Assembly: GCF_011045215.1 (NCBI RefSeq)
Contig: NZ_CP049201.1
DNA: 64,000 nucleotides
Strand: one strand, 5' to 3'
Origin: Escherichia coli
Lineage (GTDB): Bacteria > Pseudomonadota > Gammaproteobacteria > Enterobacterales > Enterobacteriaceae
The notes under the pieces were generated by a model. It was not told where the DNA came from. It was given only the letters and a program-made list of their open reading frames with translations, and did not search any database. The position numbers were made by a program, and so were the translations under genes. Shown here piece after piece: positions 5,067-29,243 of this stretch (the first letter of the stretch is position 1; each line of letters begins with the position of its first letter).

Positions 5067-5274
5067 GCGAGCAGCATTCCTGATTTTAAACGTGAACGCC
5101 GCTGGAAGAATTATCAGGTATAGAATGGCGTCGGGTGCTTGAGGCTGTCTGGCGTTAAGCATTCGCGAGGTTCCAGATGGACAAAAGCCCCAGGCGATAT
5201 TTCTATCAACCTGAGGCCAGCGTTCGAACCTAAGCAATTCGAATGTTAGTCTCTTCTTTGCAGGGAGGCAAGAC

Positions 5275-5427
5275 ATGCTGACAAAATATGCCCTTGTGGC
5301 AATCATCGTACTGTGTTGTACAGTACTGGGATTCACGCTGATGGTAGGCGACTCGTTGTGTGAGTTGAGTATCAGAGAACGTGGTATGGAGTTTAAGGCT
5401 GTTCTCGCTTACGAATCGAAGAAGTAG
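5275..5427 (+). CDS. hokX: Hok/Gef-family type I toxin (small membrane peptide)
   Basis: 50-aa ORF not in the track (below size cutoff): [50 protein letters not shown]; GGAGG RBS 6-10 nt upstream; hairpin downstream; symbol assigned from position in the cysH-cas3 intergenic region. Confidence 0.75.
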
Positions 5428-5459
5428 CCACCACGCGGGGGTAAAACCCCGCGTATTGA

Positions 5460-5619
5460 ATTGTGATGGTTTGGTCTCCTGCACCCTTTTTTAAATTTAT
5501 ATTTTTTATGTGAATATATTGTCTCTATTTATTATTATGAATTTCAAATGAAAATCATAAATTTATTCACAATATAAATGTTTTATTGGCTGATATATAT
5601 CACAGATAATTTTTAAAAT
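5460..5619 (+). promoter_or_regulatory. AT-rich region upstream of cas3 (likely cas3 promoter and nucleoid-protein silencing region)
   Basis: About 160 bp of very AT-rich sequence immediately 5' of cas3; no specific motifs mapped. Confidence 0.4.
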
Positions 5620-8319
5620 ATGCGTAAATATCCTTTAAGTTTACTGAAGGATAAAAATATTGTGACTTTCTTTGATTTCTGGGGAAAAACCCGACGCGAC
5701 GAGAAAGAAGGGGGTGACGACTATCACCTTCTTTGCTGGCATTCGCTGGATGTGGCCGCGATGGGCTATTTAATGGTTAAAAGAAATTGCTTCGGGCTGG
5801 CTGATTATTTTCGTCAATTAGGGATTTCTGACAAGGAACAGGCGGCTCAATTTTTCGCCTGGTTGTTGTGCTGGCACGATATTGGAAAATTTGCCCGCTC
5901 ATTTCAGCAACTTTACCTGCACCCACAACTCAAGGTTCCGGAAGGCGCAAGAAAGAATTACGAAAAGATCTCTCATTCAACGCTGGGCTACTGGTTGTGG
6001 CATCATTATTTAAGTGAATGCGAAGAATTGCTTCCTGCCTCTTCACTCTCTACTCGCAAACTTAAACGTGTAATAGCGATGTGGATGCCCATGACTACCG
6101 GGCATCATGGTCGGCCCCCTGACCGTATTGATGAACTGGATAATTTTCTGCCTGAAGACAAAGTTGCCGCGCGAGATTTTCTCCTTGAAATCAAGGCACT
6201 GTGTCCGCTCATAGAGATTCCCACATTCTGGGATAATGACGAGGGAGTTGAACTTTTAAAACAACTTTCCTGGTATATCTCTGCAACAGTCGTACTTGCA
6301 GACTGGACGGGTTCGTCAACGCGATTTTTTCCACGCGTCGCACACCCAATGGATATTAAAGATTACTGGCAGAAAACTTTAGTTCAGGCTCAAAACGCCT
6401 TAACCGTCTTTCCTCCAAAAGCAGAAACCGCACCTTTCACCGGAATTAATACGCTGTTTCCTTTTATTGAGCACCCGACACCATTACAGCAAAAGGTGCT
6501 GGATCTGGATATCAGCCAGCCAGGGCCACAGTTATTTATTCTGGAAGACGTGACTGGCGCAGGTAAAACAGAAGCGGCGCTTATCCTGGCGCACAGGTTG
6601 ATGGCTGCGAGGAAAGCACAGGGTTTGTTTTTTGGCCTGCCAACAATGGCAACGGCCAATGCCATGTACGATCGGCTGGTCAAAACCTGGCTTGCTTTCT
6701 TTTCGCCAGAATCCCGCCCCAGCCTGGTGCTGGCACACAGCGCCCGTACATTAATGGAACGCTTTAATGAATCACTCTGGTCCGGTGATTTAGTCGGGTC
6801 AGAAGAACCGGATGAACAAGCGTTCAGTCAAGGATGTGCAGCCTGGTTTGCCGACAGTAACAAGAAGGCTTTACTGGCTGAAATTGGCGTCGGCACGCTG
6901 GATCAGGCGATGATGGCAGTGATGCCGTTTAAACATAATAATCTGCGGCTTCTGGGGTTGAGTAACAAAATCCTGCTGGCTGATGAGATCCACGCCTGTG
7001 ACGCTTACATGTCGTACATTCTTGAAGGGTTGATTGAGCGACAGGTGCGTGGCGGAAACAGCGTCATTTTGCTTTCTGCTACGTTATCTCAACAGCAGCG
7101 CGACAAACTTGTCGCCGCCTTTGCGCGTGGCACAGAGGGCCAGCAAGAAGCTCCGTTCCTGGAAAAGGATGATTACCCCTGGCTGACGCATGTCACGAAA
7201 TCCGATGTGCATTCGCACCGGGTAGCGACGCGCAAAGACGTTGAGCGTAGCGTGAGCGTGGGTTGGCTTCATAGCGAACAAGAATGTATTGCGCGTATCG
7301 AATCAGCGGTAAGTCAGGGGAAATGCATCGCCTGGATCCGGAATTCTGTCGATGACGCTATTAAGGTTTATCGTCAGTTACTTGCCCGCGGCGTCATTCC
7401 TGCTTCCAGCCTTTCACTTTTTCATAGCCGCTTTGCTTTTAGCGATCGCCAGCGAATTGAAACGGAAACGCTGGCACGCTTTGGTAAAAATTGTAGTTTA
7501 AAAAGATCATCTCAAGTCATTGTTTGTACACAAGTAATTGAGCAAAGTGTGGATATTGACCTGGACGAAATGATCTCCGACCTGGCCCCCATTGATTTGC
7601 TGATCCAGCGAGCGGGGCGATTACAACGGCATATTCGCGATATTAATGGTCAGTTAAAGCGTGATGGAAAAGACGAGCGTTCCCCTCCTGAATTGCTGAT
7701 TCTGGCCCCCGTCTGGGACGACTCTCCGGGTGACGAATGGTTTGGCAGTGCGATGCGTAACAGCGCATATGTCTACCCCGATCATGGGCGAATCTGGCTG
7801 ACGCAGCGAGTATTGCGTGAGCAAGGCGCTATTCAGATGCCACACGCAGCCCGGCTTCTTATTGAATCCGTCTACGGTGAGGACGTGGTAATGCCGGAAG
7901 GATTTGCCCGCAGCGAGCAGGAGCAAGTGGGCAAATATTACTGCGATCGCGCAATGGCTAAAAAGTTTATGCTGAACTTCAGGCCCGGCTATGCCGCCAA
8001 TATCAACGATTACCTCCCGGAAAAGCTGTCGACACGTCTGGCTGAAGAGTCTGTTTCCCTGTGGCTGGCTACCTGTATTGACGGTGTGGTGAAGCCTTAT
8101 GCCAGCGGTGCTCACGCATGGGAAATGAGCGTTGCCAGAGTGCGTCGAAGCTGGTGGAAAAAACATCGGGATGAATTTTCTTTACTGGAAGGGGAAGCGT
8201 TCAGGCAGTGGTGTGTTGAACAACGGCAAGATCCGGAGATGGCAAACGTGATTTTAGTCACTGATGACGAAAGTTGCGGGTATTCGGCCAGGGAGGGATT
8301 GATTGGCAAGGTTGATTGA
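5620..8319 (+). CDS. cas3: Type I-E CRISPR-associated helicase/nuclease Cas3 (HD nuclease + SF2 helicase)
   Basis: 899 aa; N-terminal HD motifs (HLLCWHSLDVAA, WHDIGK), Walker A (GAGKTEAA) and DExH-like LADEIHA; start taken from the only upstream ATG, true start may be an internal GTG. Confidence 0.93.
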   Translation: MRKYPLSLLKDKNIVTFFDFWGKTRRDEKEGGDDYHLLCWHSLDVAAMGYLMVKRNCFGLADYFRQLGISDKEQAAQFFAWLLCWHDIGKFARSFQQLYLHPQLKVPEGARKNYEKISHSTLGYWLWHHYLSECEELLPASSLSTRKLKRVIAMWMPMTTGHHGRPPDRIDELDNFLPEDKVAARDFLLEIKALCPLIEIPTFWDNDEGVELLKQLSWYISATVVLADWTGSSTRFFPRVAHPMDIKDYWQKTLVQAQNALTVFPPKAETAPFTGINTLFPFIEHPTPLQQKVLDLDISQPGPQLFILEDVTGAGKTEAALILAHRLMAARKAQGLFFGLPTMATANAMYDRLVKTWLAFFSPESRPSLVLAHSARTLMERFNESLWSGDLVGSEEPDEQAFSQGCAAWFADSNKKALLAEIGVGTLDQAMMAVMPFKHNNLRLLGLSNKILLADEIHACDAYMSYILEGLIERQVRGGNSVILLSATLSQQQRDKLVAAFARGTEGQQEAPFLEKDDYPWLTHVTKSDVHSHRVATRKDVERSVSVGWLHSEQECIARIESAVSQGKCIAWIRNSVDDAIKVYRQLLARGVIPASSLSLFHSRFAFSDRQRIETETLARFGKNCSLKRSSQVIVCTQVIEQSVDIDLDEMISDLAPIDLLIQRAGRLQRHIRDINGQLKRDGKDERSPPELLILAPVWDDSPGDEWFGSAMRNSAYVYPDHGRIWLTQRVLREQGAIQMPHAARLLIESVYGEDVVMPEGFARSEQEQVGKYYCDRAMAKKFMLNFRPGYAANINDYLPEKLSTRLAEESVSLWLATCIDGVVKPYASGAHAWEMSVARVRRSWWKKHRDEFSLLEGEAFRQWCVEQRQDPEMANVILVTDDESCGYSAREGLIGKVD

Positions 8320-8408
8320 GATGCCTGCGACAGAGACTCTCTGAATAGTTGATACACCGAAAAGGATGGATAACCGACCTGGATGGTCTTTTTTACGAGA
8401 GGATGCGT

Positions 8409-9971
8409 ATGAACTTGTTTTCACTTCTGACAACCCCGTGGTTGCCCGTTCGTTTTAAAGACGGAACGACAGGCAAACTGGCGCCAGTCGATCTGGCTGA
8501 TGAAAATGTTGTCGATATCGCCGCGCCGCGAGCAGATTTACAAGGTGCGGCATGGCAGTTTTTGCTGGGGCTACTACAAACCAGCTTTGCGCCAAAAGAT
8601 CATCGTCGTTGGGATGATATCTGGGAAGACGGACTGGAAGCTGAAAAGCTAAGGGAAGCATTGCTGTCATTAGAACATGCTTTCCAGTTTGGCCCAGATT
8701 CCCCTTCATTTATGCAGGATTTTGAGGCGCTCACGGGAGATAAAGTTCAGGTCGCTTCGCTACTGCCTGATGTTCCCGGCGCTCAAACGACGAAGTTTAA
8801 TAAAGACCATTTTATCAAGCGTGGTGTAACGGAATATCTGTGCCCCCATTGTTTAGCATTGGCCTTGTTCTCTTTACAGTTGAATGCACCAGCGGGTGGC
8901 AAAGGCTATCGCACCGGTTTGCGCGGCGGTGGGCCGATGACCACTCTGATTGAATTACAGGAATATCAGGGCAATCAACAAACACCCTTATGGCGCAAAC
9001 TGTGGCTCAACGTGATGCCGCAGGATGAAGCCGACTTACCGCTACCCCAAAAATTTGACGATCTGGTTTTCCCCTGGCTTGGCCCGACGCGTACCAGCGA
9101 ACTGGCCGGTGCGGTGGTAACCGATGATCAGGTTAATAAACTCCAGGCGTACTGGGGAATGCCACGGCGTATTCGTATTGATTTTAATACCACCACAGTC
9201 GGCAACTGCGATATTTGCGGTGAGCAGAGCGACGCGCTTCTGAGCCTGATGACGACCAAAAATTACGGCGCTAACTATGCCATGTGGCAGCATCCCTTAA
9301 CGCCTTACCGTGTACCACTTAAAGAGGGCGGCGAGTTTTACTCAGTTAAACCACAACCGGGCGGTTTAATCTGGCGCGACTGGTTAGGCCTTATCGAAAC
9401 GGGGAAATCAGAAAACAATACGGAACTTCCCGCGCTGGTGGTGAAACTCTTTAATGCCAGCAGTCTGAAACAGGCAAAAGTGGGCCTGTGGGGATTTGGT
9501 TATGATTTTGACAACATGAAAGCGCGCTGTTGGTACGAGCACCATTTCCCGCTTCTGCTCAATAAAAAAGAAGGCCAGATACCGAAACTGCGGCTGGCTG
9601 CGCAAACGGCTTCACGGATTCTGAGTCTGTTACGGAGTGCATTGAAAGAAGCGTGGTTCTCCGATCCAAAAGGTGCACGGGGTGATTTCAGTTTTGTGGA
9701 TATCGACTTCTGGAACAAAACTCAGCATCGCTTCCTGAGGTTAGTGCGCCAAATTGAAGAAGGTCAGGATGCGGATGAATTACTCGGCAAATGGCAAAAG
9801 GAAATTTGGTTATTCGCACGTCAGGATTTTGACGAGCGTGTATTCACCAATCCTTATGAGCCCGTTGATTTGGAACGCGTCATGACCGCGCGCAAGAAAT
9901 ATTTTACAACATCGGCGGAGAAGCAAAGTGCTAAAGCCGCCAGGGAGAAAAAGCAGGAGGCTGCTGAATGA
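8409..9971 (+). CDS. casA: Cascade large subunit Cse1/Cas8e
   Basis: ORF 8349..9971 trimmed to MNLFSLLTTPWLPVR (520 aa), matching the Cse1 N-terminus pattern MNL...W.PVR; conserved GLRGGGPMTTL loop region; GAGAGG RBS. Confidence 0.9.
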   Translation: MNLFSLLTTPWLPVRFKDGTTGKLAPVDLADENVVDIAAPRADLQGAAWQFLLGLLQTSFAPKDHRRWDDIWEDGLEAEKLREALLSLEHAFQFGPDSPSFMQDFEALTGDKVQVASLLPDVPGAQTTKFNKDHFIKRGVTEYLCPHCLALALFSLQLNAPAGGKGYRTGLRGGGPMTTLIELQEYQGNQQTPLWRKLWLNVMPQDEADLPLPQKFDDLVFPWLGPTRTSELAGAVVTDDQVNKLQAYWGMPRRIRIDFNTTTVGNCDICGEQSDALLSLMTTKNYGANYAMWQHPLTPYRVPLKEGGEFYSVKPQPGGLIWRDWLGLIETGKSENNTELPALVVKLFNASSLKQAKVGLWGFGYDFDNMKARCWYEHHFPLLLNKKEGQIPKLRLAAQTASRILSLLRSALKEAWFSDPKGARGDFSFVDIDFWNKTQHRFLRLVRQIEEGQDADELLGKWQKEIWLFARQDFDERVFTNPYEPVDLERVMTARKKYFTTSAEKQSAKAAREKKQEAAE

Positions 9972-10504
9972 GTATTGTAAAAGAGGAGCACAAAGCCACG
10001 CTGCGCAAATGGCATGAGGAATTGCAGGAGAAACGCGGCGAACGTGCCAGTCTGCGGCGTAGTACGACGGTTAATGATGTTTGTCTGACGGATGGATTTC
10101 GCCTGTTTCTGAAGAACAGACAAATAAAGTGGCAGGATGAACCTGAATGGCGTATTACCGCACTGGCGCTGATAGCCGCACTTAGCGCTAATGTTAAAGC
10201 CATTGATGAACGGCTGCCTTTTGCTGCGCAGCTGGCGGCGGTAATGTCAAAGGGGCGTTTTACTCGCCTGTCGGCAGTAAAAACACCGGATGAATTACTG
10301 CGCCAGTTACGCCGCGCAGTCAGATTATTAAACGGTTCCGTTAATCTTGACTCTCTGGCAGAGGGTGTCTTCCGCTGGTGCCAGGAGAGCGACGATCTGC
10401 TCAATCATCACCGCCGTCATCAGCGGCCAACCGAATTTATCCGTATCCGCTGGGCGCTGGAATATTACCAGGCTGGCGACGCCGATAACGAACAAAATCA
10501 ATAA
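9968..10504 (+). CDS. casB: Cascade small subunit Cse2/Cas11
   Basis: 178 aa basic helical protein; ATG overlaps the cse1 stop (ATGA); position between cse1 and cas7. Confidence 0.85.
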   Translation: MSIVKEEHKATLRKWHEELQEKRGERASLRRSTTVNDVCLTDGFRLFLKNRQIKWQDEPEWRITALALIAALSANVKAIDERLPFAAQLAAVMSKGRFTRLSAVKTPDELLRQLRRAVRLLNGSVNLDSLAEGVFRWCQESDDLLNHHRRHQRPTEFIRIRWALEYYQAGDADNEQNQ

Positions 10505-10515
10505 AGGACTATCTC

Positions 10516-11571
10516 ATGACGACATTTATTCAGCTTCATTTGTTAACCGCTTACCCTGCAGCCAACCTTAACCGTGATGACACCGGAGCGCCGAAAACCG
10601 TGGTCCTGGGTGGAGCAACGCGACTGCGCGTTTCCTCGCAAAGTCTGAAACGTGCGTGGCGCACTTCTGCACTTTTTGAACAGGCACTGGCGGGCCATAT
10701 TGGTATTCGCAGTGGGCGTATTGCGCGTGAGGCGGCAACGATCCTGATTGAGAAAGGCATCGAAGAGAAAAAAGCCATCGAATGGGCGGCAAAAATTGCG
10801 GATTATCTTGGGAAAGCTAAAAACGACAAAAAACCAAAAGATCCGCTCACTAACGCCGAAACTGAACAATTAGTCCATATCAGCCCGGCAGAATTTGACG
10901 CCGTAAAAGCGCTGGCCCATCAACTGGCCGAAGAAAAGCGCGCGCCAAAAGAGGAAGATCTCGCTTTGTTACGTAAAGATCGCATGGCGGTAGATATCGC
11001 TATGTTTGGTCGTATGCTGGCGAATAAACCCGAATTTAATGTTGAAGCCGCCTGCCAGGTCGCGCATGCATTTGGTGTCAGTGAAACGATTGTCGAAGAT
11101 GATTTTTTCACCGCCGTTGATGATTTGCGCCAGGCTTCTGAAGATGCCGGTGCCGGGCATCTTGGTGAAACCGGATTCGGTTCTGCGCTGTTCTACACCT
11201 ATATCTGCATCGATAAAGATCTGCTGGTCGAAAACCTCGGCGGTGACGAAGCGTTAGCTAATCAGACCTTGCGCGCCTTTACGGAAGCCGCACTTAAAGT
11301 CTCCCCAACCGGCAAACAGAACAGCTTTGCCAGCCGTGCCTACGCCTCCTGGGCGCTGGCAGAAAAAGGGACTGAACAACCACGCTCTCTGGCGGCGGCT
11401 TTCTATGAACCCATTAATGGCACCCGGCAGTTAGATGTGGCGGTGCAGCGTATTACAACGCTTCGCGAAAATATGAATACGGTCTATGAACAGAAGACCG
11501 AATGCGCAAGCTTTGACGTGATGAACAAACAGGGAAGCATGAAGGACGTGCTGGACTTTATCTGCGCGTAA
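10516..11571 (+). CDS. casC: Cascade backbone subunit Cas7e
   Basis: 351 aa; Cas7e-like N-terminal region (LTAYPAANLNRDD...SSQSLKRAWR); third gene of the effector operon. Confidence 0.9.
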   Translation: MTTFIQLHLLTAYPAANLNRDDTGAPKTVVLGGATRLRVSSQSLKRAWRTSALFEQALAGHIGIRSGRIAREAATILIEKGIEEKKAIEWAAKIADYLGKAKNDKKPKDPLTNAETEQLVHISPAEFDAVKALAHQLAEEKRAPKEEDLALLRKDRMAVDIAMFGRMLANKPEFNVEAACQVAHAFGVSETIVEDDFFTAVDDLRQASEDAGAGHLGETGFGSALFYTYICIDKDLLVENLGGDEALANQTLRAFTEAALKVSPTGKQNSFASRAYASWALAEKGTEQPRSLAAAFYEPINGTRQLDVAVQRITTLRENMNTVYEQKTECASFDVMNKQGSMKDVLDFICA

Positions 11572-11581
11572 GGGGCGGCTA

Positions 11582-12328
11582 ATGAGCCAATATTTGATTT
11601 TTCAGCTTCATGGGCCAATGGCATCCTGGGGCGTCGATGCCCCCGGCGAAGTGCGTCATACCCATGAACTGCCTTCGCGCTCAGCATTGCTGGGGCTGCT
11701 GGCTGCCGGGGTAGGGATTCGGCGTGATGATACCGAACGATTAAACGCGTTTAACCGCCACTATTCACTGGTGGTTTGCGCCAGCCGTAACCCGCGCTGG
11801 GCACGGGATTATCACACGATCCAGATGCCAAAAGAGGTGCGTAAAGCGCGTTATTTCAGCCGTCGCGAAGAGTTGAGCGACCCTGATCTTCTGAGCGCGA
11901 TTATCTCCCGGCGCGACTACTACACCGACGCCTGGTGGATGGTGGCGGTGGCAACAACAGCCGATGCGCCTTACAGCCTCGAACAGTTGCAGGGCGGTTT
12001 ACGCCATCCAGTTTTTCCTCTTTATCTGGGGCGAAAAAGTCATCCGCTGGCATTACCACTTGCGCCGTTACTGCTCGAAGGCAACGCGTCTGATGTTTTA
12101 CGTAACGCATATCACCAGTATCAGGAGCATTTCCACGACCTGAAAATCGCACTCCCGAAACTTCAGGATGAATGCTGGTGGGAAGGGGAGCACGACGGCC
12201 TGGTCGCGAGCAAAATATTGCGCCGCCGGGATGTTCCTTTAAATCGTCAGCAATGGCTGTTTGGGGAACGCACCGTCAATCAGGGGCCGTGGCTCAGCAA
12301 GGAGGAACCATGTACCTCTCAAGAATAA
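11582..12328 (+). CDS. casD: Cascade subunit Cas5e
   Basis: 248 aa; N-terminus QLHGPMASWG...LPSRSALLGLLAAGVGIRRDD resembles Cas5e. Confidence 0.9.
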   Translation: MSQYLIFQLHGPMASWGVDAPGEVRHTHELPSRSALLGLLAAGVGIRRDDTERLNAFNRHYSLVVCASRNPRWARDYHTIQMPKEVRKARYFSRREELSDPDLLSAIISRRDYYTDAWWMVAVATTADAPYSLEQLQGGLRHPVFPLYLGRKSHPLALPLAPLLLEGNASDVLRNAYHQYQEHFHDLKIALPKLQDECWWEGEHDGLVASKILRRRDVPLNRQQWLFGERTVNQGPWLSKEEPCTSQE

Positions 12329-12956
12329 CCTTACATACCGGCCAGCTTTCGCCTGCGCAGTTGCTGCATCTGGTGGAGCGCGGGGAATATGTGATGCATC
12401 AGTGGCTGTGGGATCTCTTCCCTGGCGGCAAAGAAAGGCAATTTCTTTATCGTCGGGAAGAACTCCAGGGCGCGTTTCGCTTTTTTGTACTGTCGCAGGA
12501 ACGCCCGGCGGAAAGTGAAACGTTCACCATCGAATGCCGGTCATTTGTGCCCGAGCTGCGTACCGGACAACAACTTTGTTTCAACCTGCGGGCGAATCCA
12601 ACAATCTGTAAAGCGGGCAAGCGCCACGATCTGCTGATGGAGGCGAAACGGCAGGTGAGGGGGCAGGCGGAAGGAAGTGATGTCTGGTTGCATCAACAAC
12701 AGGCGGCGCTGGACTGGCTGGCAGCGCAGGGGGAGAGAAGCGGTTTTACACTGCTGGATACCTCGGTTGATGCCTACCGACAACAGCAACTGCGGCGGGA
12801 AAACTCCCGGCAACTGATCCAGTTCAGTAGCGTGGATTATACGGGGATGCTTACGGTCACCGATCCCGGGTTATTTCTGCAACGTCTCAGTCAGGGGTAT
12901 GGCAAAAGCCGCGCGTTCGGCTGTGGTCTGATGCTGATCAAACCCGGAGCAGAGGC

Positions 12957-12960
<4 letters not shown>
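12310..12960 (+). CDS. casE: Cas6e pre-crRNA endoribonuclease
   Basis: ORF 12172..12960 trimmed to MYLSRITLH (216 aa) preceded by an AAGGAGGA RBS; C-terminal glycine-rich GxGxxxxxGxG loop; overlaps the cas5 3' end. Confidence 0.9.
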
Positions 12961-14170
<1,210 letters not shown>

Positions 14171-14266
14171 GTTATGTGTTCTTTAAAAATAAGGAAATGT
14201 TTGAATTTAGTTGGTAGATTGTTGATGTGGAATAAATTTGTTTAAAAACAGATATGTATGCTTAGT
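14171..14266 (+). promoter_or_regulatory. CRISPR leader (AT-rich; array promoter and integration-proximal region)
   Basis: 96-bp AT-rich sequence between the cas2 stop and the first repeat. Confidence 0.8.
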
Positions 14267-14478
14267 GTGTTCCCCGCGCCAGCGGGGATAAACCGGTGCA
14301 TAAAAAATGATACCCCAGCGTTTCGTTGTGTTCCCCGCGCCAGCGGGGATAAACCGATTGAAATAGATCTCCCCGACATTAACGAACAGTGTTCCCCGCG
14401 CCAGCGGGGATAAACCGGGCGCACTGGATGCGATGATGGATATCACTTAGAATTCCCCGCCCCTGCGGTAGAACTCCC
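14267..14478 (+). CRISPR. Type I-E CRISPR array: 4 repeats (29 bp) and 3 spacers (32 bp)
   Basis: Repeat GTGTTCCCCGCGCCAGCGGGGATAAACCG at 14267-14295, 14328-14356 and 14389-14417; degenerate terminal repeat GAATTCCCCGCCCCTGCGGTAGAACTCCC at 14450-14478; spacers at 14296-14327, 14357-14388 and 14418-14449. Confidence 0.97.
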
Positions 14479-23363: not shown

Positions 23364-24551
23364 ATGAGCGCGGGAAGCCCAAAATTCACCGTTCGCCGCA
23401 TTGCGGCTTTGTCACTGGTTTCGCTATGGCTGGCAGGCTGTTCTGACACTTCAAATCCACCGGCACCGGTCAGCTCCGTTAATGGCAATGCGCCTGCAAA
23501 TACCAATTCTGGTATGTTGATTACGCCGCCGCCGAAAATGGGGACGACGTCTACAGCGCAGCAACCGCAAATTCAGCCGGTGCAGCAGCCACAAATTCAG
23601 GCCACTCAACAACCGCAAATTCAGCCGGTGCAGCAGCCACAAATTCAGGCCACTCAACAACCGCAAATCCAGCCAGTGCAGCCAGTAGCTCAGCAGCCGG
23701 TACAGATGGAAAACGGACGCATCGTCTATAACCGTCAGTATGGGAACATTCCGAAAGGCAGTTATAGCGGCAGTACCTATACCGTGAAAAAAGGCGACAC
23801 ACTTTTCTATATCGCCTGGATTACTGGCAACGATTTCCGTGACCTTGCTCAGCGCAACAATATTCAGGCGCCCTACGCGCTGAACGTTGGTCAGACCTTG
23901 CAGGTGGGTAATGCTTCCGGTACGCCAATCACTGGCGGAAATGCCATTACCCAGGCCGATGCAGCAGAGCAAGGAGTTGTGATCAAGCCTGCACAAAATT
24001 CCACCGTTGCTGTTGCGTCGCAACCGACAATTACGTATTCTGAGTCTTCGGGTGAACAGAGTGCTAACAAAATGTTGCCGAACAACAAGCCAACTGCGAC
24101 CACGGTCACAGCGCCTGTAACGGTACCAACAGCAAGCACAACCGAGCCGACTGTCAGCAGTACATCAACCAGTACGCCTATCTCCACCTGGCGCTGGCCG
24201 ACTGAGGGCAAAGTGATCGAAACCTTTGGCGCTTCTGAGGGGGGCAACAAGGGGATTGATATCGCAGGCAGCAAAGGACAGGCAATTATCGCGACCGCAG
24301 ATGGCCGCGTTGTTTATGCCGGTAACGCGCTGCGCGGCTACGGTAATCTGATTATCATCAAACATAATGATGATTACCTGAGTGCCTACGCCCATAACGA
24401 CACAATGCTGGTCCGGGAACAACAAGAAGTGAAGGCGGGGCAAAAAATAGCAACCATGGGTAGCACCGGAACCAGTTCAACACGCTTGCATTTTGAAATT
24501 CGTTACAAGGGGAAATCCGTAAACCCGCTGCGTTATTTGCCGCAGCGATAA
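23364..24551 (+). CDS. nlpD: Murein hydrolase activator lipoprotein NlpD (LysM + M23 domains)
   Basis: 395 aa; lipobox LAGC; Gln/Pro-rich repeats; C-terminal M23 peptidase-like domain; rpoS promoter expected within this gene. Confidence 0.95.
23559..23678 (+). repeat. In-frame tandem repeat tract in nlpD (five 24-bp units encoding [16 protein letters not shown])
   Basis: Direct repeats seen in the DNA, including a near-identical 48-bp duplication (23583-23630 vs 23631-23678). Confidence 0.85.
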
Positions 24552-25626: not shown

Positions 25627-25659
25627 CCAGTCTCAAGCGAGGCTGGCCTTTTTCTTTTG
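25627..25659 (+). terminator. rpoS rho-independent terminator
   Basis: 8-bp stem (CCAGUCUC/GAGGCUGG with one G-U pair), 4-nt loop, then a T-rich tract. Confidence 0.7.
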
Positions 25660-25725
25660 TTTGGGAAGCTTGTGTTTTTGTCGCCTGGATAAGACACGTC
25701 AGCGTCCTACCCGGCAATTTGCATC

Positions 25726-26133
25726 CTATGTGTTCATCATCTTGCGCACCAGCTGCACAAACAGCTCCTGCTCTTCTGCACTCAAACGCCCCAAAAATTC
25801 CTCATCCACGCTGTCACCAATCGGTATCGCCGCAGCAAGTATCTTTTCTCCTTCGGCAGTCAGCCAGACAAAGCGACGCCGCTTGTCAGCGGCATCATGT
25901 TCACGTCTGACTAAGCCACGATTCTCCATTCTTGCCAACATTTCTGCCAACGTTGCTTTGGTGCTGACTGCTGCTTCTATCAGTGCCACCTGTTCGATAC
26001 CAGGCTTATCAGCAATGGCGCGCATCACCGCATACTGTGGTTTGGTCAGGTCAGGTAACTCGTGCTGCCAGCGAGCCGTGTGCTGCTGAAAAAGCTGTCG
26101 TAACTGATGGAACGCTTTATTTCGTAACGCCAT
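25726..26133 (-). CDS. MarR/SlyA-family transcriptional regulator
   Basis: 135 aa winged-helix regulator; divergently oriented to the downstream decarboxylase operon. Confidence 0.85.
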   Translation of the reverse strand: MALRNKAFHQLRQLFQQHTARWQHELPDLTKPQYAVMRAIADKPGIEQVALIEAAVSTKATLAEMLARMENRGLVRREHDAADKRRRFVWLTAEGEKILAAAIPIGDSVDEEFLGRLSAEEQELFVQLVRKMMNT

Positions 26134-26279
26134 GTAAACTCCGGGCTAATTCTCTGTCGCTATCATAGCGGTTTTTTAGTGACGAAGAAGATGTTGTTAC
26201 TTTTCAATCCTTGCCGCTGTGGAAATGAAGGAGTATGTTAATAATAACGTTCGTATACGAACAATTAAGAGAATAAGCA

Positions 26280-26873
26280 ATGAAACTGATCGTCGGGATG
26301 ACAGGGGCTACCGGTGCGCCTCTTGGTGTGGCATTACTGCAAGCGCTGCGGGAGATGCCGAATGTCGAGACTCATCTGGTGATGTCGAAGTGGGCGAAAA
26401 CCACCATTGAACTGGAAACGCCTTACAGCGCTCGCGATGTTGCTGCCCTCGCAGACTTCTGCCATAACCCGGCGGATCAGGCGGCGACCATCTCCTCAGG
26501 TTCCTTTCGTACCGACGGCATGATCGTTATTCCGTGCAGTATGAAAACGCTCGCCGGTATCCGCGCTGGTTACGCCGATGGCTTGGTAGGGCGCGCGGCG
26601 GACGTCGTGCTCAAAGAAGGCCGCAAACTGGTGCTGGTGCCGCGTGAAATGCCGCTTAGCACCATCCATCTCGAAAATATGCTCGCACTTTCACGCATGG
26701 GCGTGGCGATGGTGCCGCCGATGCCTGCCTTTTATAACCATCCCGAAACGGTAGATGACATTGTCCACCATGTGGTAGCCCGCGTGCTGGATCAATTTGG
26801 CCTCGAACATCCCCACGCCAGGCGCTGGCAAGGATTGCCGCAGGCCCGGAATTTTTCTCAGGAGAATGAATAA
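26280..26873 (+). CDS. ecdB: UbiX-like flavin prenyltransferase (decarboxylase subunit B)
   Basis: 197 aa; UbiX/Pad1 family (MKLIVGMTGATGA...); first gene of a three-gene operon; symbol recalled from the O157-type locus naming, treat as tentative. Confidence 0.85.
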   Translation: MKLIVGMTGATGAPLGVALLQALREMPNVETHLVMSKWAKTTIELETPYSARDVAALADFCHNPADQAATISSGSFRTDGMIVIPCSMKTLAGIRAGYADGLVGRAADVVLKEGRKLVLVPREMPLSTIHLENMLALSRMGVAMVPPMPAFYNHPETVDDIVHHVVARVLDQFGLEHPHARRWQGLPQARNFSQENE

Positions 26874-28300
26874 TGGCATTTGATGATTTACGCAGCTTTT
26901 TACAGGCGCTTGATGACCACGGCCAGTTACTGAAAATCAGCGAAGAAATGAACGCTGAACCGGATCTGGCTGCCGCTGCCAACGCCACCGGGCGTATCGG
27001 CGATGGTGCACCGGCGCTGTGGTTTGATAATATTCGCGGCTTTACCGATGCCCGCGTGGCGATGAATACCATCGGTTCCTGGCAGAACCACGCGATTTCC
27101 CTGGGCCTGCCGCCAAACACCCCGGTTAAAAAACAGATTGATGAATTCATCCGCCGCTGGGATAACTTCCCGATTGTCCCGGAACGCCGCGCCAATCCTG
27201 CCTGGGCGCAGAACACCGTCGATGGCGACGAGATTAATTTGTTCGATATCCTGCCACTGTTTCGTTTAAACGATGGCGATGGCGGTTTCTATCTCGACAA
27301 AGCCTGCGTGGTTTCCCGCGATCCGCTCGACCCAGATAACTTCGGCAAGCAGAACGTCGGCATCTACCGCATGGAAGTGAAGGGCAAGCGTAAGCTCGGC
27401 CTGCAACCGGTGCCGATGCACGATATCGCCCTGCATCTGCATAAAGCAGAAGAGCGCGGTGAAGATCTGCCGATTGCGATCACGCTCGGTAACGATCCGA
27501 TCATCACGCTGATGGGGGCCACGCCGCTGAAATACGATCAGTCTGAGTATGAAATGGCAGGCGCGCTGCGTGAAAGCCCGTACCCGATCGCCACCGCCCC
27601 GCTGACCGGTTTTGATGTGCCGTGGGGTTCAGAAGTGATCCTCGAAGGGGTCATCGAAAGCCGTAAGCGCGAAATCGAAGGGCCGTTCGGTGAGTTTACC
27701 GGACACTACTCCGGCGGGCGTAACATGACCGTGGTGCGCATCGATAAAGTCTCTTACCGCACCAGGCCGATTTTCGAATCGCTGTACCTCGGCATGCCGT
27801 GGACCGAAATCGACTACCTGATGGGGCCAGCCACCTGCGTACCGCTATATCAACAACTGAAAGCCGAGTTCCCGGAAGTGCAGGCGGTAAACGCCATGTA
27901 CACCCACGGCCTGCTGGCGATTATCTCCACCAAAAAACGCTACGGCGGCTTTGCCCGCGCGGTGGGCCTGCGCGCGATGACCACGCCGCACGGTCTGGGC
28001 TACGTGAAGATGGTGATTATGGTCGATGAAGACGTTGATCCGTTCAACCTGCCGCAGGTGATGTGGGCGCTCTCCTCGAAAGTGAACCCGGCAGGGGATT
28101 TGGTGCAGTTGCCGAATATGTCCGTGCTGGAACTCGACCCAGGCTCAAGCCCGGCGGGGATCACCGACAAGCTGATTATCGACGCCACCACGCCTGTTGC
28201 CCCGGACAACCGTGGTCACTACAGCCAGCCGGTGGTGGATTTACCGGAAACCAAAGCCTGGGCTGAAAAACTGACCGCTATGCTGGCTGCACGTAAATAA
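26873..28300 (+). CDS. ecdC: UbiD-family reversible aromatic acid decarboxylase (subunit C)
   Basis: 475 aa; UbiD family; start overlaps the ecdB stop. Confidence 0.85.
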   Translation: MAFDDLRSFLQALDDHGQLLKISEEMNAEPDLAAAANATGRIGDGAPALWFDNIRGFTDARVAMNTIGSWQNHAISLGLPPNTPVKKQIDEFIRRWDNFPIVPERRANPAWAQNTVDGDEINLFDILPLFRLNDGDGGFYLDKACVVSRDPLDPDNFGKQNVGIYRMEVKGKRKLGLQPVPMHDIALHLHKAEERGEDLPIAITLGNDPIITLMGATPLKYDQSEYEMAGALRESPYPIATAPLTGFDVPWGSEVILEGVIESRKREIEGPFGEFTGHYSGGRNMTVVRIDKVSYRTRPIFESLYLGMPWTEIDYLMGPATCVPLYQQLKAEFPEVQAVNAMYTHGLLAIISTKKRYGGFARAVGLRAMTTPHGLGYVKMVIMVDEDVDPFNLPQVMWALSSKVNPAGDLVQLPNMSVLELDPGSSPAGITDKLIIDATTPVAPDNRGHYSQPVVDLPETKAWAEKLTAMLAARK

Positions 28301-28310
28301 GGAGAAGAAG

Positions 28311-28547
28311 ATGATTTGTCCACGTTGTGCCGATGAACAGATTGAAGTGATGGCGAAATCGCCGGTGAAAGATGTCTGGACGGTATATCAGTGCCAGCAT
28401 TGCCTTTATACCTGGCGCGATACCGAACCGCTACGCCGCACCAGCCGCGAACATTATCCCGAAGCGTTCCGCATGACGCAGAAAGATATTGATGACGCGC
28501 CAATGGTGCCGAGCATCCCGCCGCTGCTGGCGGAAGGTAAGCGCTAA
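28311..28547 (+). CDS. ecdD: Decarboxylase small subunit D (Cys-rich, zinc-ribbon-like)
   Basis: 78 aa with CPRC...CQHC motif; immediately after the UbiD gene. Confidence 0.75.
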   Translation: MICPRCADEQIEVMAKSPVKDVWTVYQCQHCLYTWRDTEPLRRTSREHYPEAFRMTQKDIDDAPMVPSIPPLLAEGKR

Positions 28548-28555
28548 TAAAAAGT

Positions 28556-28583
28556 GCCGGGTAGTGGCTTTGCTTTACCCGGC
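28556..28583. terminator. Hairpin terminator between convergent ecdD and pphB
   Basis: Perfect 8-bp stem GCCGGGTA/TACCCGGC with a 12-nt loop; U-run on the pphB (minus) side. Confidence 0.55.
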
Positions 28584-28587
28584 CTCA

Positions 28588-29243
28588 TTACTTTATTTTA
28601 TAAAATGACAGCCGCCCGCTGTTCGGCGATCCGGTATCAATATAAATCTGGTTAGCGAACGTCTGAATGTTATCAAACATCATATGTCCAAATATAAAAT
28701 AATCAGCGCCGTTTATTTGTTGTAACTCGCCATTAAGCGATTTCTGCACACGATCAACAGGCCAGAGTAATTCGCTCTCCGCTATTTCTTTACCAAAGAG
28801 ATATTCACTCCCCGGATAATCTGCATGTGCGATGACATATTTTATGTTGTCGTTAGTGATTTAATAATATGTGGAAGGTGATGGAATTTCAGCAACAGAT
28901 CTATTGCCTCTTGTTGCTCTGAATCATTTAAATCGAAAAACCAGTCACCACCGCTGGCAAGCCACATATTTCCATCGCCAGTTTCGAATGCCTCAAGGGC
29001 CATCGCTTCGTGGTTGCCTTTAGCCGATGTAAACCAGGACTGGTTTAACAGGCGCAGCACGTTAAGACTCTCCGGCCCACGATCGATGTTATCGCCTGTG
29101 GAAATAAGTAAGTCGGTTTCAGGGCAAAAAGAGAGTTGATGTAAACGGGATTGTAATAACTGATATTCACCATGAATATCACCAACGACCCATATATGGC
29201 GATAATGATGGGCATTGACTTTTTGATAGCGTGTAGATGGCAT
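28588..29243 (-). pseudogene. pphB: Serine/threonine protein phosphatase 2 (PphB), disrupted by a 1-bp frameshift
   Basis: N-terminal 133 aa (GDIHG, GDNIDRG motifs) ends at stop 28842; the C-terminal part continues in the -1 frame to a stop at 28588; frameshift near 28860. Confidence 0.8.

What the first reader, a model, noticed from the sequence alone, without database searches (positions are those of the whole stretch)
5620..14478. Complete type I-E CRISPR-Cas locus whose effector genes differ from my recollection of the K-12 proteins
All eight genes are intact and tightly packed with overlapping stop/start codons, followed by leader and array. Cas3, Cse1, Cse2, Cas7, Cas5 and Cas6e share only family-level motifs with the K-12 proteins as I recall them and have different lengths (899, 520, 178, 351, 248 and 216 aa), suggesting the second E. 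coli I-E cas variant. The locus sits between the cysJIH and cysDNC sulfur-assimilation operons, as in other E. coli.
Basis: partly seen in the sequence, partly recalled or inferred. Interest (0 to 1): 0.55.

Follow-up and report, generated by a model that had tools for sequence, protein, structure and literature searches.

The report
Common non-K-12 E. coli CRISPR-Cas locus

Summary
Window 5620-14478 holds eight intact, tightly packed type I-E cas genes (cas3, cse1, cse2, cas7, cas5, cas6e, cas1, cas2). A 96-bp leader follows, then a small array of three 29-nt repeats, three 32-nt spacers and one degenerate terminal repeat.

Against K-12 MG1655, Cas3 through Cas6e are 23-36% identical. Cas1 and Cas2 are 84-86% identical. 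The flanking cysJIH, iap and cysDNC products are 99-100% identical.

It is the published cas-E1 variant, also called cas-EO (Díez-Villaseñor 2013; Almendros 2014). It comes with its own leader-A and its own GTG-type repeat.

It is the majority form. A near-full-length copy is present in 2,419 of 5,426 complete E. coli genomes, against 1,115 for the K-12 form.

Catalytic motifs are intact, and dN/dS against O55:H7 is 0.06-0.33, so the genes are under purifying selection. This copy's best whole-locus identity to a complete genome is only 96.5-97.2%. That is explained by mosaic recombination among E1 alleles already circulating in E. coli.

Spacers 1 and 2 match no known phage or plasmid.

Verdict: already known, low interest.

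The parts
5428..5619 (+). AT-rich region upstream of cas3 (27% GC overall, 19% GC over 5470-5619). Presumed cas3 promoter region and candidate H-NS binding site.
   Evidence: Composition. One promoter-like site at 5590-5619, but the total found is no more than expected from shuffles. The H-NS role is inferred from K-12 and Salmonella literature, not tested.
5620..8319 (+). cas3, 899 aa: HD nuclease fused to an SF2 helicase. Motifs: H41, H86-D87, H162-H163, D228; Walker A GAGKTE at 313; DEIH at 455; motif VI QRAGRLQRH at 663.
   Evidence: NCBIfam cas3_core 227 bits and cas3_HD 88 bits, both above cutoff. PADLOC Cas3e 953 bits. PDB alignment to 4Q2C and 4QQW. Motif positions.
8320..8408 (+). 89-bp cas3-cse1 spacer, against 414 bp in K-12, where that region holds Pcas. 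Contains a weak hairpin followed by a T-run, then the cse1 ribosome-binding site GAGAGGA.
   Evidence: K-12 coordinates. Length varies among E1 loci: 97 bp in four genomes and 429 bp in strain N3.
8409..9971 (+). cse1/casA (cas8e), 520 aa: Cascade large subunit, responsible for PAM recognition and Cas3 recruitment.
   Evidence: TIGR02547 613 bits against a cutoff of 70. PADLOC Cas8e. 23% identical to K-12 CasA.
9968..10504 (+). cse2/casB (cas11e), 178 aa: Cascade small subunit.
   Evidence: TIGR02548 99 bits against a cutoff of 28.5. BLASTP finds no significant match to K-12 CasB.
10516..11571 (+). cas7e/casC, 351 aa: Cascade backbone subunit.
   Evidence: TIGR01869 448 bits against a cutoff of 178.
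11582..12328 (+). cas5e/casD, 248 aa.
   Evidence: TIGR01868 158 bits against a cutoff of 69.
12310..12960 (+). cas6e/casE, 216 aa: pre-crRNA endoribonuclease. Catalytic His conserved (H30, equivalent to K-12 H20). C-terminal glycine-rich loop GCGLM at 204.
   Evidence: TIGR01907 292 bits. Alignment to K-12 CasE chain 4QYZ_K. Positions.
12957..13880 (+). cas1e, 307 aa, GTG start: integrase. The K-12 active-site residues E141, H208, D218 and D221 are all conserved.
   Evidence: TIGR03638 379 bits. Pairwise alignment with K-12 Cas1 at 84% identity.
13877..14170 (+). cas2e, 97 aa.
   Evidence: TIGR01873 134 bits. 86% identical to K-12 Cas2.
14171..14266 (+). Leader, 96 bp, 25% GC. This is 'leader-A': identical to the O55:H7 leader and only partly alignable with the K-12 'leader-T'.
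   Evidence: Alignment. Leader types defined in PMC3737337.
14267..14449 (+). CRISPR2.1 array.
- Repeats at 14267-14295, 14328-14356 and 14389-14417: the GTG-type ('CRISPR-A') 29-nt repeat with a 7-bp GC-rich hairpin.
- Spacers at 14296-14327, 14357-14388 and 14418-14449.
- Spacer 3 is the ancestral 'anchor' spacer, 31/32 identical to the last K-12 spacer.
   Evidence: Repeat fold -15.2 kcal/mol, z = -3.2. Anchor concept from PMC3903273.
14450..14478 (+). Degenerate terminal repeat GAATTCCCCGCCCCTGCGGTAGAACTCCC, conserved with K-12.
   Evidence: High-identity homology to K-12 resumes from the anchor spacer and degenerate repeat onward.

Best explanation
**What it is.** This is a complete chromosomal type I-E CRISPR-Cas adaptive-immunity cassette of the cas-E1 variant (also called cas-EO, or 'O157:H7-type'). 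It carries its cognate leader-A and GTG-type repeats and sits at the conserved cysH-iap site of E. coli.

**How it most likely works.** These steps are inferred from the family and not tested here.
- The array is transcribed from the leader.
- Cas6e (catalytic H30) cuts each repeat hairpin.
- Cse1, Cse2, Cas7, Cas5 and Cas6e assemble on the crRNA as Cascade. The 1:2:6:1:1 stoichiometry is assumed from K-12.
- Cascade finds protospacers flanked by an AWG PAM. This is the CWT motif of the published work, read on the other strand.
- Cascade forms an R-loop and recruits Cas3, which nicks and unwinds the target.
- Cas1-Cas2 insert new 32/33-nt spacers at the leader-repeat junction.

**Regulation.** Expression is probably low under laboratory conditions, through H-NS-type silencing of the very AT-rich cas3 upstream region and leader. 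This is inferred.

**Origin of the two forms.** The cassette differs from K-12 because K-12 and a minority of strains had the whole cassette replaced by a different I-E lineage, cas-E2. The replaced stretch runs from just after the hok start codon to the penultimate spacer.

**This particular copy.** It is a recombinant mosaic of E1 alleles already circulating in E. coli.
For: **Family membership.**
- All eight proteins exceed the curated NCBIfam I-E cutoffs, and the best PADLOC models are all I-E.
- Gene order and overlaps fit an operon.
- Catalytic residues are intact in Cas3, Cas6e and Cas1.
- The repeat folds into the canonical hairpin.

**Variant identity.**
- DNA identity to O55:H7 and O157:H7 loci is 96-97%.
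- Protein identity to O55:H7 is 94.8-100%.
- The leader is identical to that of O55:H7.
- Gene lengths, GC content and K-12 identities match published tables.
- cas GC is 51.3% against 44.8% in K-12. Almendros 2014 reported 53.5% against 45.6%.

**Prevalence.** This form is present in 2,419 of 5,426 complete genomes; the K-12 form in 1,115.

**Cassette boundaries.** High-identity homology to K-12 stops at window 5277 and resumes at the anchor spacer.

**Selection.** dN/dS against O55:H7 is 0.06-0.33 for the genes with measurable divergence.

**Mosaicism.** Each 300-nt block is 99-100% identical to a different E. coli genome.

**Published function.** Acquisition by the cas-EO Cas proteins, with a CWT motif, was shown experimentally in PMC3737337.
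Against: - No expression or interference data exist for this strain.
- The array is minimal: two lineage-specific spacers plus the ancestral anchor spacer. This argues for little recent acquisition.
- Spacers 1 and 2 match nothing in 50,697 phage or 72,556 plasmid records.
- Promoter-like sites in the region are no more frequent than in shuffled sequence.
- H-NS silencing, Cascade stoichiometry and the interference PAM are carried over from K-12, O157:H7 and Salmonella work, not shown here.
Confidence: 0.93

Rival explanations
1. The locus is an inert relic: intact by chance but no longer used for immunity, and on its way to the loss seen in many E. coli lineages.
For: - Only three spacers, one of them the ancestral anchor spacer.
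- No protospacer found for spacers 1 and 2.
- Many E. coli genomes retain only hok plus an array remnant, or IS-disrupted cas genes (H8, H9, H11, H17-H24).
- On my own knowledge, the E. coli population literature reports little evidence of ongoing immunity. I did not check this here.
Against: - Eight of eight ORFs are intact over 8.5 kb, with all catalytic motifs present.
- Divergence from O55:H7 is mostly synonymous. dN/dS is 0.16 for cas3 and 0.06 for cse1, which indicates continuing purifying selection.
- Spacers 1 and 2 are not shared with any of 5,426 complete genomes, so they were acquired within this lineage.
Confidence: 0.15
2. The cassette, or its divergent cas3/cse1 segment, was recently imported from another species. 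That would explain why no complete E. coli genome exceeds about 97% identity across the locus.
For: - The best whole-locus identity is 96.5-97.2%.
- Local dS reaches 0.56 in cse1 codons 101-200, against 0.04-0.12 in cysJIH.
- The exact Cas3 protein was seen on only 3 contigs in a very large collection.
Against: - Block-by-block comparison with only five E. coli genomes finds 99-100% matches for most 300-nt blocks. The best donor switches along the locus: ET350, Res13/SCU-316, then O55:H7. The sequence is therefore a new combination of alleles from the E. coli pool.
- Recombination within cas-E1 is already documented.
- Cassette GC (51.3%) is close to that of the window as a whole (53.2%).
Confidence: 0.04
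3. The locus is kept mainly for a non-immune role, for example Cas1 in DNA repair or crRNA-guided regulation of host genes.
For: Purifying selection despite a tiny array. On my own knowledge, non-canonical roles have been proposed for the K-12 Cas1 and for Salmonella I-E. I did not check this here.
Against: Nothing in the sequence points to it. I did not search spacers 1 and 2 on their own for targets elsewhere in E. coli chromosomes. The search with the leader-plus-array segment found no genome sharing them. The architecture is the canonical immune one.
Confidence: 0.03

Closest known systems
E. coli cas-E1 / cas-EO type I-E system (O157:H7 and O55:H7 type) with leader-A and CRISPR-A repeats. 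Described in Díez-Villaseñor et al. 2013 RNA Biol (PMC3737337), Almendros et al. 2014 mBio (PMC3903273), and as 'var. B-8552' in PMC12736100.
   Same: - Same chromosomal site, gene order and gene lengths.
- Identical leader and identical repeat.
- Proteins 94.8-100% identical to O55:H7 DEC5B.
- Intact hok upstream of cas3, as in the other E1 genomes examined.
   Different: - The cas3 and cse1 alleles are a new mosaic: 94.6% and 95.0% nucleotide identity to O55:H7, with other blocks matching ET350 or Res13.
- The array is shorter (3 spacers), and two of its spacers are not seen elsewhere.
- The cas3-cse1 spacer is 89 bp rather than 97 bp.
E. coli K-12 type I-E system (cas-E2 / cas-EK, leader-T, GAG-type repeat), the biochemical and structural reference for Cascade and Cas3.
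   Same: - Same subtype, same eight genes in the same order, same cysH-iap site.
- Same terminal anchor spacer and degenerate repeat.
- The 29-nt repeat differs at a single base.
- Cas1 and Cas2 are 84-86% identical.
   Different: - Cas3 through Cas6e are only 23-36% identical, with no nucleotide similarity.
- cas GC is 51.3% against 44.8%.
- The leaders differ.
- The cas3-cse1 spacer is 89 bp against 414 bp.
- hok is truncated in K-12.
- The published acquisition motif is CWT for this variant and CTT for K-12.
Type I-E systems with solved structures: K-12 Cascade (4QYZ, 4TVX, 5H9F), Thermobifida fusca Cas3 and Cascade (4QQW, 6C66), Thermobaculum terrenum Cas3 (4Q2C), Thermus thermophilus Cse3 (2Y8W).
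   Same: Same domain architecture and catalytic motifs.
   Different: No solved structure is a close relative of the three proteins I searched. Cas3 matches 4Q2C best (284 bits), Cse1 reaches only 61 bits against K-12 CasA, and Cas6e reaches 45 bits.

Membership tests
Type I-E CRISPR-Cas | Signature large subunit Cse1/Cas8e and small subunit Cse2/Cas11e | tested here: met
   TIGR02547 613 bits (cutoff 70) and TIGR02548 99 bits (cutoff 28.5). PADLOC Cas8e and Cas11e.
Type I-E CRISPR-Cas | Cas7e, Cas5e and Cas6e present, in the order cas3-cse1-cse2-cas7-cas5-cas6e-cas1-cas2, with no cas4 | tested here: met
   No additional ORF lies between the genes.
Type I-E CRISPR-Cas | Single-chain Cas3 with an N-terminal HD nuclease and an SF2 helicase, catalytic motifs intact | tested here: met
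   cas3_HD and cas3_core both above cutoff. HD, Walker A, DExH and motif VI located.
Type I-E CRISPR-Cas | Cas1e and Cas2e adaptation pair with the Cas1 metal-binding residues | tested here: met
   TIGR03638 and TIGR01873 above cutoff. E141, H208, D218 and D221 conserved.
Type I-E CRISPR-Cas | Adjacent array of 29-nt palindromic repeats with ~32-nt spacers, downstream of an AT-rich leader | tested here: met
Type I-E CRISPR-Cas | crRNA-guided DNA interference and spacer acquisition actually occur | not testable with these tools
   Needs experiments in the strain. Published acquisition data exist for the O157:H7 version of the variant.
E. coli cas-E1 / cas-EO variant | Cas proteins cluster with O157:H7 and O55:H7, not with K-12 | tested here: met
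   94.8-100% amino-acid identity to O55:H7, against 23-36% to K-12 for Cas3 through Cas6e.
E. coli cas-E1 / cas-EO variant | Linked leader-A and CRISPR-A repeat (…GGGGAACAC, equivalent to GTGTTCCCC…) | tested here: met
   Leader identical to O55:H7. Repeat sequence. Definitions from PMC3737337.
E. coli cas-E1 / cas-EO variant | Higher GC than the K-12 variant (published 53.5% against 45.6%) | tested here: met
   51.3% against 44.8%. Per-gene GC of 49-56% matches Table 1 of PMC12736100.
E. coli cas-E1 / cas-EO variant | Located between cysH and iap | tested here: met
E. coli K-12 cas-E2 variant | Matches the K-12-specific NCBIfam equivalogs NF007248 (Cas3) and NF007247 (CasA) above cutoff | tested here: not met
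   430 bits against a cutoff of 569, and 104.5 bits against 576. The K-12 proteins score 1620 and 909.

The most novel reading that the evidence does not exclude
The new mosaic of Cas3 and Cse1 alleles might be functionally meaningful. Nonsynonymous changes relative to O55:H7 cluster in Cas3 codons 101-200 and 601-700 and in Cse1 codons 101-200. By alignment to K-12 CasA, the Cse1 segment covers the PAM-sensing loop region. The combination could alter PAM tolerance or Cas3 recruitment, or allow escape from an anti-CRISPR, and be maintained by balancing selection among E1 alleles.
Probability: 0.06. Interest if true: 0.35.

Novelty: already known. Interest (0 to 1): 0.1.

Why it matters
It matters little as a discovery. 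The two-variant dimorphism of the E. coli I-E system, its chromosomal site, its linked leader and repeat types and its within-variant recombination are all published.

It is a useful reminder that K-12 Cascade and Cas3, the model for nearly all I-E biochemistry and structure, is the minority form in the species. The majority form, present in about 45% of complete genomes, has no close relative among solved structures for the three proteins I searched (Cas3, Cse1, Cas6e). Its published acquisition motif also differs.

For annotation purposes the locus can be labelled confidently as an intact cas-E1 type I-E system.

Tried and rejected
- **Tandem Repeats Finder** did not report the array. This is expected for spaced repeats; the repeat finder and a pattern search did find it.
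- **Rfam** at gathering threshold found no CRISPR repeat family in the window. Its only hit was sok.
- **Spacers 1 and 2** gave no match in phages or plasmids at E <= 1. No complete E. coli genome shares them.
- **'Rare allele means foreign import'** was considered, because the best whole-locus identity was only ~97% and exact Cas3 was found on 3 contigs. It was rejected after the block-wise comparison showed a mosaic of E. coli alleles and mostly synonymous divergence.
- **Plasmid carriage.** A protein search with Cse1 gave four Escherichia hits. Three are 4.8-4.9-Mb records, which are chromosome-sized. One is a 293-kb plasmid with a partial cse1. All other hits are 46% identical or less. There is no evidence that the variant is plasmid-borne.
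- **Promoter and terminator scans** gave counts no higher (promoters) or only marginally higher (terminators) than shuffled sequence. No regulatory claim rests on them.
- **An IHF consensus scan** of the leader gave only matches with two mismatches, so no IHF site is claimed.
- **Not run:** the large protein-database and genome-collection scans and structure prediction. They could not change the verdict.
Full report

Yes. The six-frame ORF list shows a run of same-strand ORFs from 5620 to 14170 with the stated lengths.

The 520-aa (ATG 8409) and 216-aa (ATG 12310) starts are the ones annotated in homologous RefSeq loci. The NCBIfam models also align from those starts, beginning at residues 5 and 1.

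Junctions are -4, +11, +10, -19, -4 and -4 nt, with one 89-nt gap between cas3 and cse1. Shine-Dalgarno-like sequences precede most starts.

A 96-bp leader with 25% GC follows cas2. Next come three exact copies of GTGTTCCCCGCGCCAGCGGGGATAAACCG at 61-nt spacing, where none is expected by chance. The array also has three 32-nt spacers and a degenerate terminal repeat ending at 14478. The repeat RNA folds into a 7-bp GC hairpin (-15.2 kcal/mol, z = -3.2).

**2. What are the genes?**

All eight proteins exceed the curated cutoffs of the NCBIfam type I-E models:
- Cse1 613 bits (cutoff 70).
- Cse2 99 bits (cutoff 28.5).
- Cas7e 448 bits (cutoff 178).
- Cas5e 158 bits (cutoff 69).
- Cas6e 292 bits (cutoff 45).
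- Cas1e 379 bits (cutoff 216).
- Cas2e 134 bits (cutoff 33).
- Cas3 core domain 227 bits and HD domain 88 bits.

The best PADLOC models are all of the "e" subtype.

The two K-12-specific equivalog models are not reached. Cas3 scores 430 bits against a cutoff of 569, and CasA scores 104.5 against 576. The K-12 proteins score 1620 and 909 on the same models.

Catalytic features are intact:
- Cas3: HD residues H41, H86/D87, H162/H163 and D228; Walker A GAGKTE at 313; DEIH at 455; motif VI at 663.
- Cas6e: H30, equivalent to K-12 H20, plus the C-terminal glycine-rich loop.
- Cas1: E141, H208, D218 and D221.

**3. How different is it from K-12?**

I fetched the MG1655 locus and compared it gene by gene.

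| Protein | Identity to K-12 |
|---|---|
| Cas3 | 30% |
| Cse1 | 23% |
| Cse2 | 24% (BLASTP finds no significant match) |
| Cas7 | 33% |
| Cas5 | 36% |
| Cas6e | 27% (local BLASTP) |
| Cas1 | 84% (73% nucleotide) |
| Cas2 | 86% (74% nucleotide) |
| CysJ, I, H, Iap, CysD, N, C | 99-100% (97-99.7% nucleotide) |

The first six genes show no detectable nucleotide similarity to K-12.

Nucleotide homology to K-12 runs at ~98% from the window start to position 5277, which is the last base of a hok start codon. High-identity homology resumes at the last spacer and the degenerate repeat, and runs on through iap. That spacer is 31/32 identical to the last K-12 spacer.

The dimorphic segment is thus the whole cassette, about 5278-14417. 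It includes cas1, cas2 and the leader at intermediate divergence. cas GC is 51.3% here and 44.8% in K-12.

**4. Is this known?**

Yes.
- Díez-Villaseñor et al. 2013 (PMC3737337) distinguished cas-EK (K-12, leader-T, repeat ending ...AACTC) from cas-EO (O157:H7, leader-A, repeat ending ...AACAC). They showed experimentally that cas-EO uses a CWT acquisition motif rather than CTT.
- Almendros et al. 2014 (PMC3903273) renamed the two forms E2 and E1. They showed that E1 is the majority form and groups with the Salmonella enterica and E. albertii outgroup strains used in that study. They showed that E2 replaced E1 in a minority of strains, that each variant carries its own leader, that recombination occurs within E1, and that the terminal spacer plus degenerate repeat is a conserved "anchor".
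- A 2025 survey (PMC12736100) tabulates gene lengths of 2700/1563/537/1056/747/651/924/294 nt and K-12 identities of 29/23/-/31/32/29/84%. These figures match the present locus.

The window's repeat is the A type. Its leader is identical to that of O55:H7 DEC5B. Its proteins are 94.8-100% identical to the O55:H7 proteins.

**5. Prevalence.**

Among 5,426 complete E. coli genomes, 2,419 hold at least 80% of this cassette at roughly 93-97% identity, all on chromosomes. The K-12 cas3-casE segment is present at 80% coverage or more in 1,115 genomes, a count that includes many laboratory K-12 derivatives.

**6. The one oddity, and its resolution.**

No complete genome matches the cassette better than 96.5-97.2%. 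The exact Cas3 protein was on record on only three contigs.

Against O55:H7 the divergence is concentrated in cas3 and the 5' half of cse1. Individual 300-500-nt blocks there fall to 87-90% identity, and cas5 also carries one divergent block. The rest of cse2 through cas2 is 99-100% identical.

The divergence is mostly synonymous: dN/dS is 0.16 for cas3 and 0.06 for cse1. Local dS reaches 0.56, against 0.04-0.12 in cysJIH.

I compared 300-nt blocks with five E. coli genomes. Nearly every block is 99-100% identical to one of them, but the best match switches along the locus:
- ET350 for 5620-6220 and 8620-9520.
- Res13 and SCU-316 for 7120-7720.
- O55:H7 for 9820-11620.

The locus is therefore a new recombinant combination of E1 alleles already present in the species. 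This is the behaviour Almendros et al. described. It also shows that the genes are under purifying selection.

**7. Function.**

The shown facts are intact genes, intact motifs, a canonical repeat hairpin and signs of selection.

Inferred from the family and from published work on this variant:
- Transcription from the leader.
- Cas6e processing of the pre-crRNA.
- Cascade assembly.
- AWG-PAM-dependent R-loop formation.
- Cas3 recruitment.
- Cas1-Cas2 integration at the leader-proximal repeat.

The 150 bp upstream of cas3 are 19% GC. That is compatible with H-NS silencing, as in K-12, but I did not test it. Consensus promoter scans are uninformative.

The cas3-cse1 spacer is 89 bp, against 414 bp in K-12, where that region holds the Pcas promoter. 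The regulatory layout is therefore likely to differ. Among E1 loci this spacer is 97 bp in four genomes and 429 bp in strain N3.

The array is very short. Spacers 1 and 2 have no match in phage or plasmid collections and are not shared with any complete genome.

**8. Structural coverage.**

By sequence search, no close relative of the three proteins I searched has a solved structure:
- Cas3 matches T. terrenum 4Q2C best, at 284 bits.
- Cse1 reaches only 61 bits to K-12 CasA.
- Cas6e reaches 45 bits.

A protein search of plasmids with Cse1 shows 37-46% identity to Cse1 of Salmonella, Ralstonia, Salinivibrio and others. That is higher than the 23% identity to K-12.

**9. Verdict.**

The feature is a well-described, common variant and an ordinary member of it. 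Interest is low.

Noticed in passing
window 5133-5427: An intact hok/sok toxin-antitoxin module lies between cysH and cas3. The sok RNA is an Rfam RF01794 hit at 5133-5290 (111.7 bits). The hok ORF is 5275-5427 (50 aa, [20 protein letters not shown]...). K-12 homology stops at the last base of the hok ATG, so K-12 keeps only sokX. The hok start codon therefore marks the left edge of the E1/E2 replacement.
   Followed up: partly
window 25653-28588: This is the rpoS-mutS polymorphic segment. Where K-12 has ygbI-ygbN (~6.1 kb), the window has a MarR-family regulator (25729-26133, minus strand) and a vdcBCD/ecdBCD-type hydroxyarylic acid decarboxylase operon. The operon is VdcB 26280-26873, VdcC 26873-28300 (787 bits, cutoff 650) and VdcD 28311-28547. 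To my knowledge this is an already described polymorphism of this region, but I did not check it here.
   Followed up: partly
window 23364-24551 (repeat 23562-23682): nlpD is 395 aa, against 379 aa in K-12. It carries one extra 48-bp unit of the QPQIQ... tandem repeat.
   Followed up: partly
window 8320-8408; L009 4523-4951: The length of the cas3-cse1 intergenic spacer varies among E1 loci: 89 bp here, 97 bp in O55:H7, Res13, ET350 and SCU-316, and 429 bp in strain N3 (414 bp in K-12). This may mean different promoter arrangements within one variant. The content of the N3 insert was not examined.
   Followed up: no
window 5920-6219, 7420-7719, 8709-9008: Nonsynonymous differences from O55:H7 cluster in Cas3 codons 101-200 (Nd 15) and 601-700 (Nd 19.5), and in Cse1 codons 101-200 (Nd 10.5, dS 0.56). 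By alignment to K-12 CasA, the Cse1 segment covers the PAM-sensing loop region. The pattern is explained by recombination between old alleles. Whether selection maintains these alleles was not tested.
   Followed up: partly
PLSDB record NZ_LC542972.1, 240729-242000 (hit H98): A 293-kb E. coli plasmid record carries a partial E1-type cse1 (residues 78-501, 96% identity), lying under a gene annotated as a DUF6012 family protein. Three other 'plasmid' hits are 4.8-4.9-Mb records, which are chromosome-sized.
   Followed up: no
window 28589-64000: The rest of the window is collinear with K-12 2,825,005-2,860,415 (pphB, mutS, ygbA, fhlA, hyp, hyc, asc, hydN, hypF, norRVW, gutQ and most of srl). It forms a single alignment at 98.0% identity, with no insertion sequences or islands.
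   Followed up: yes
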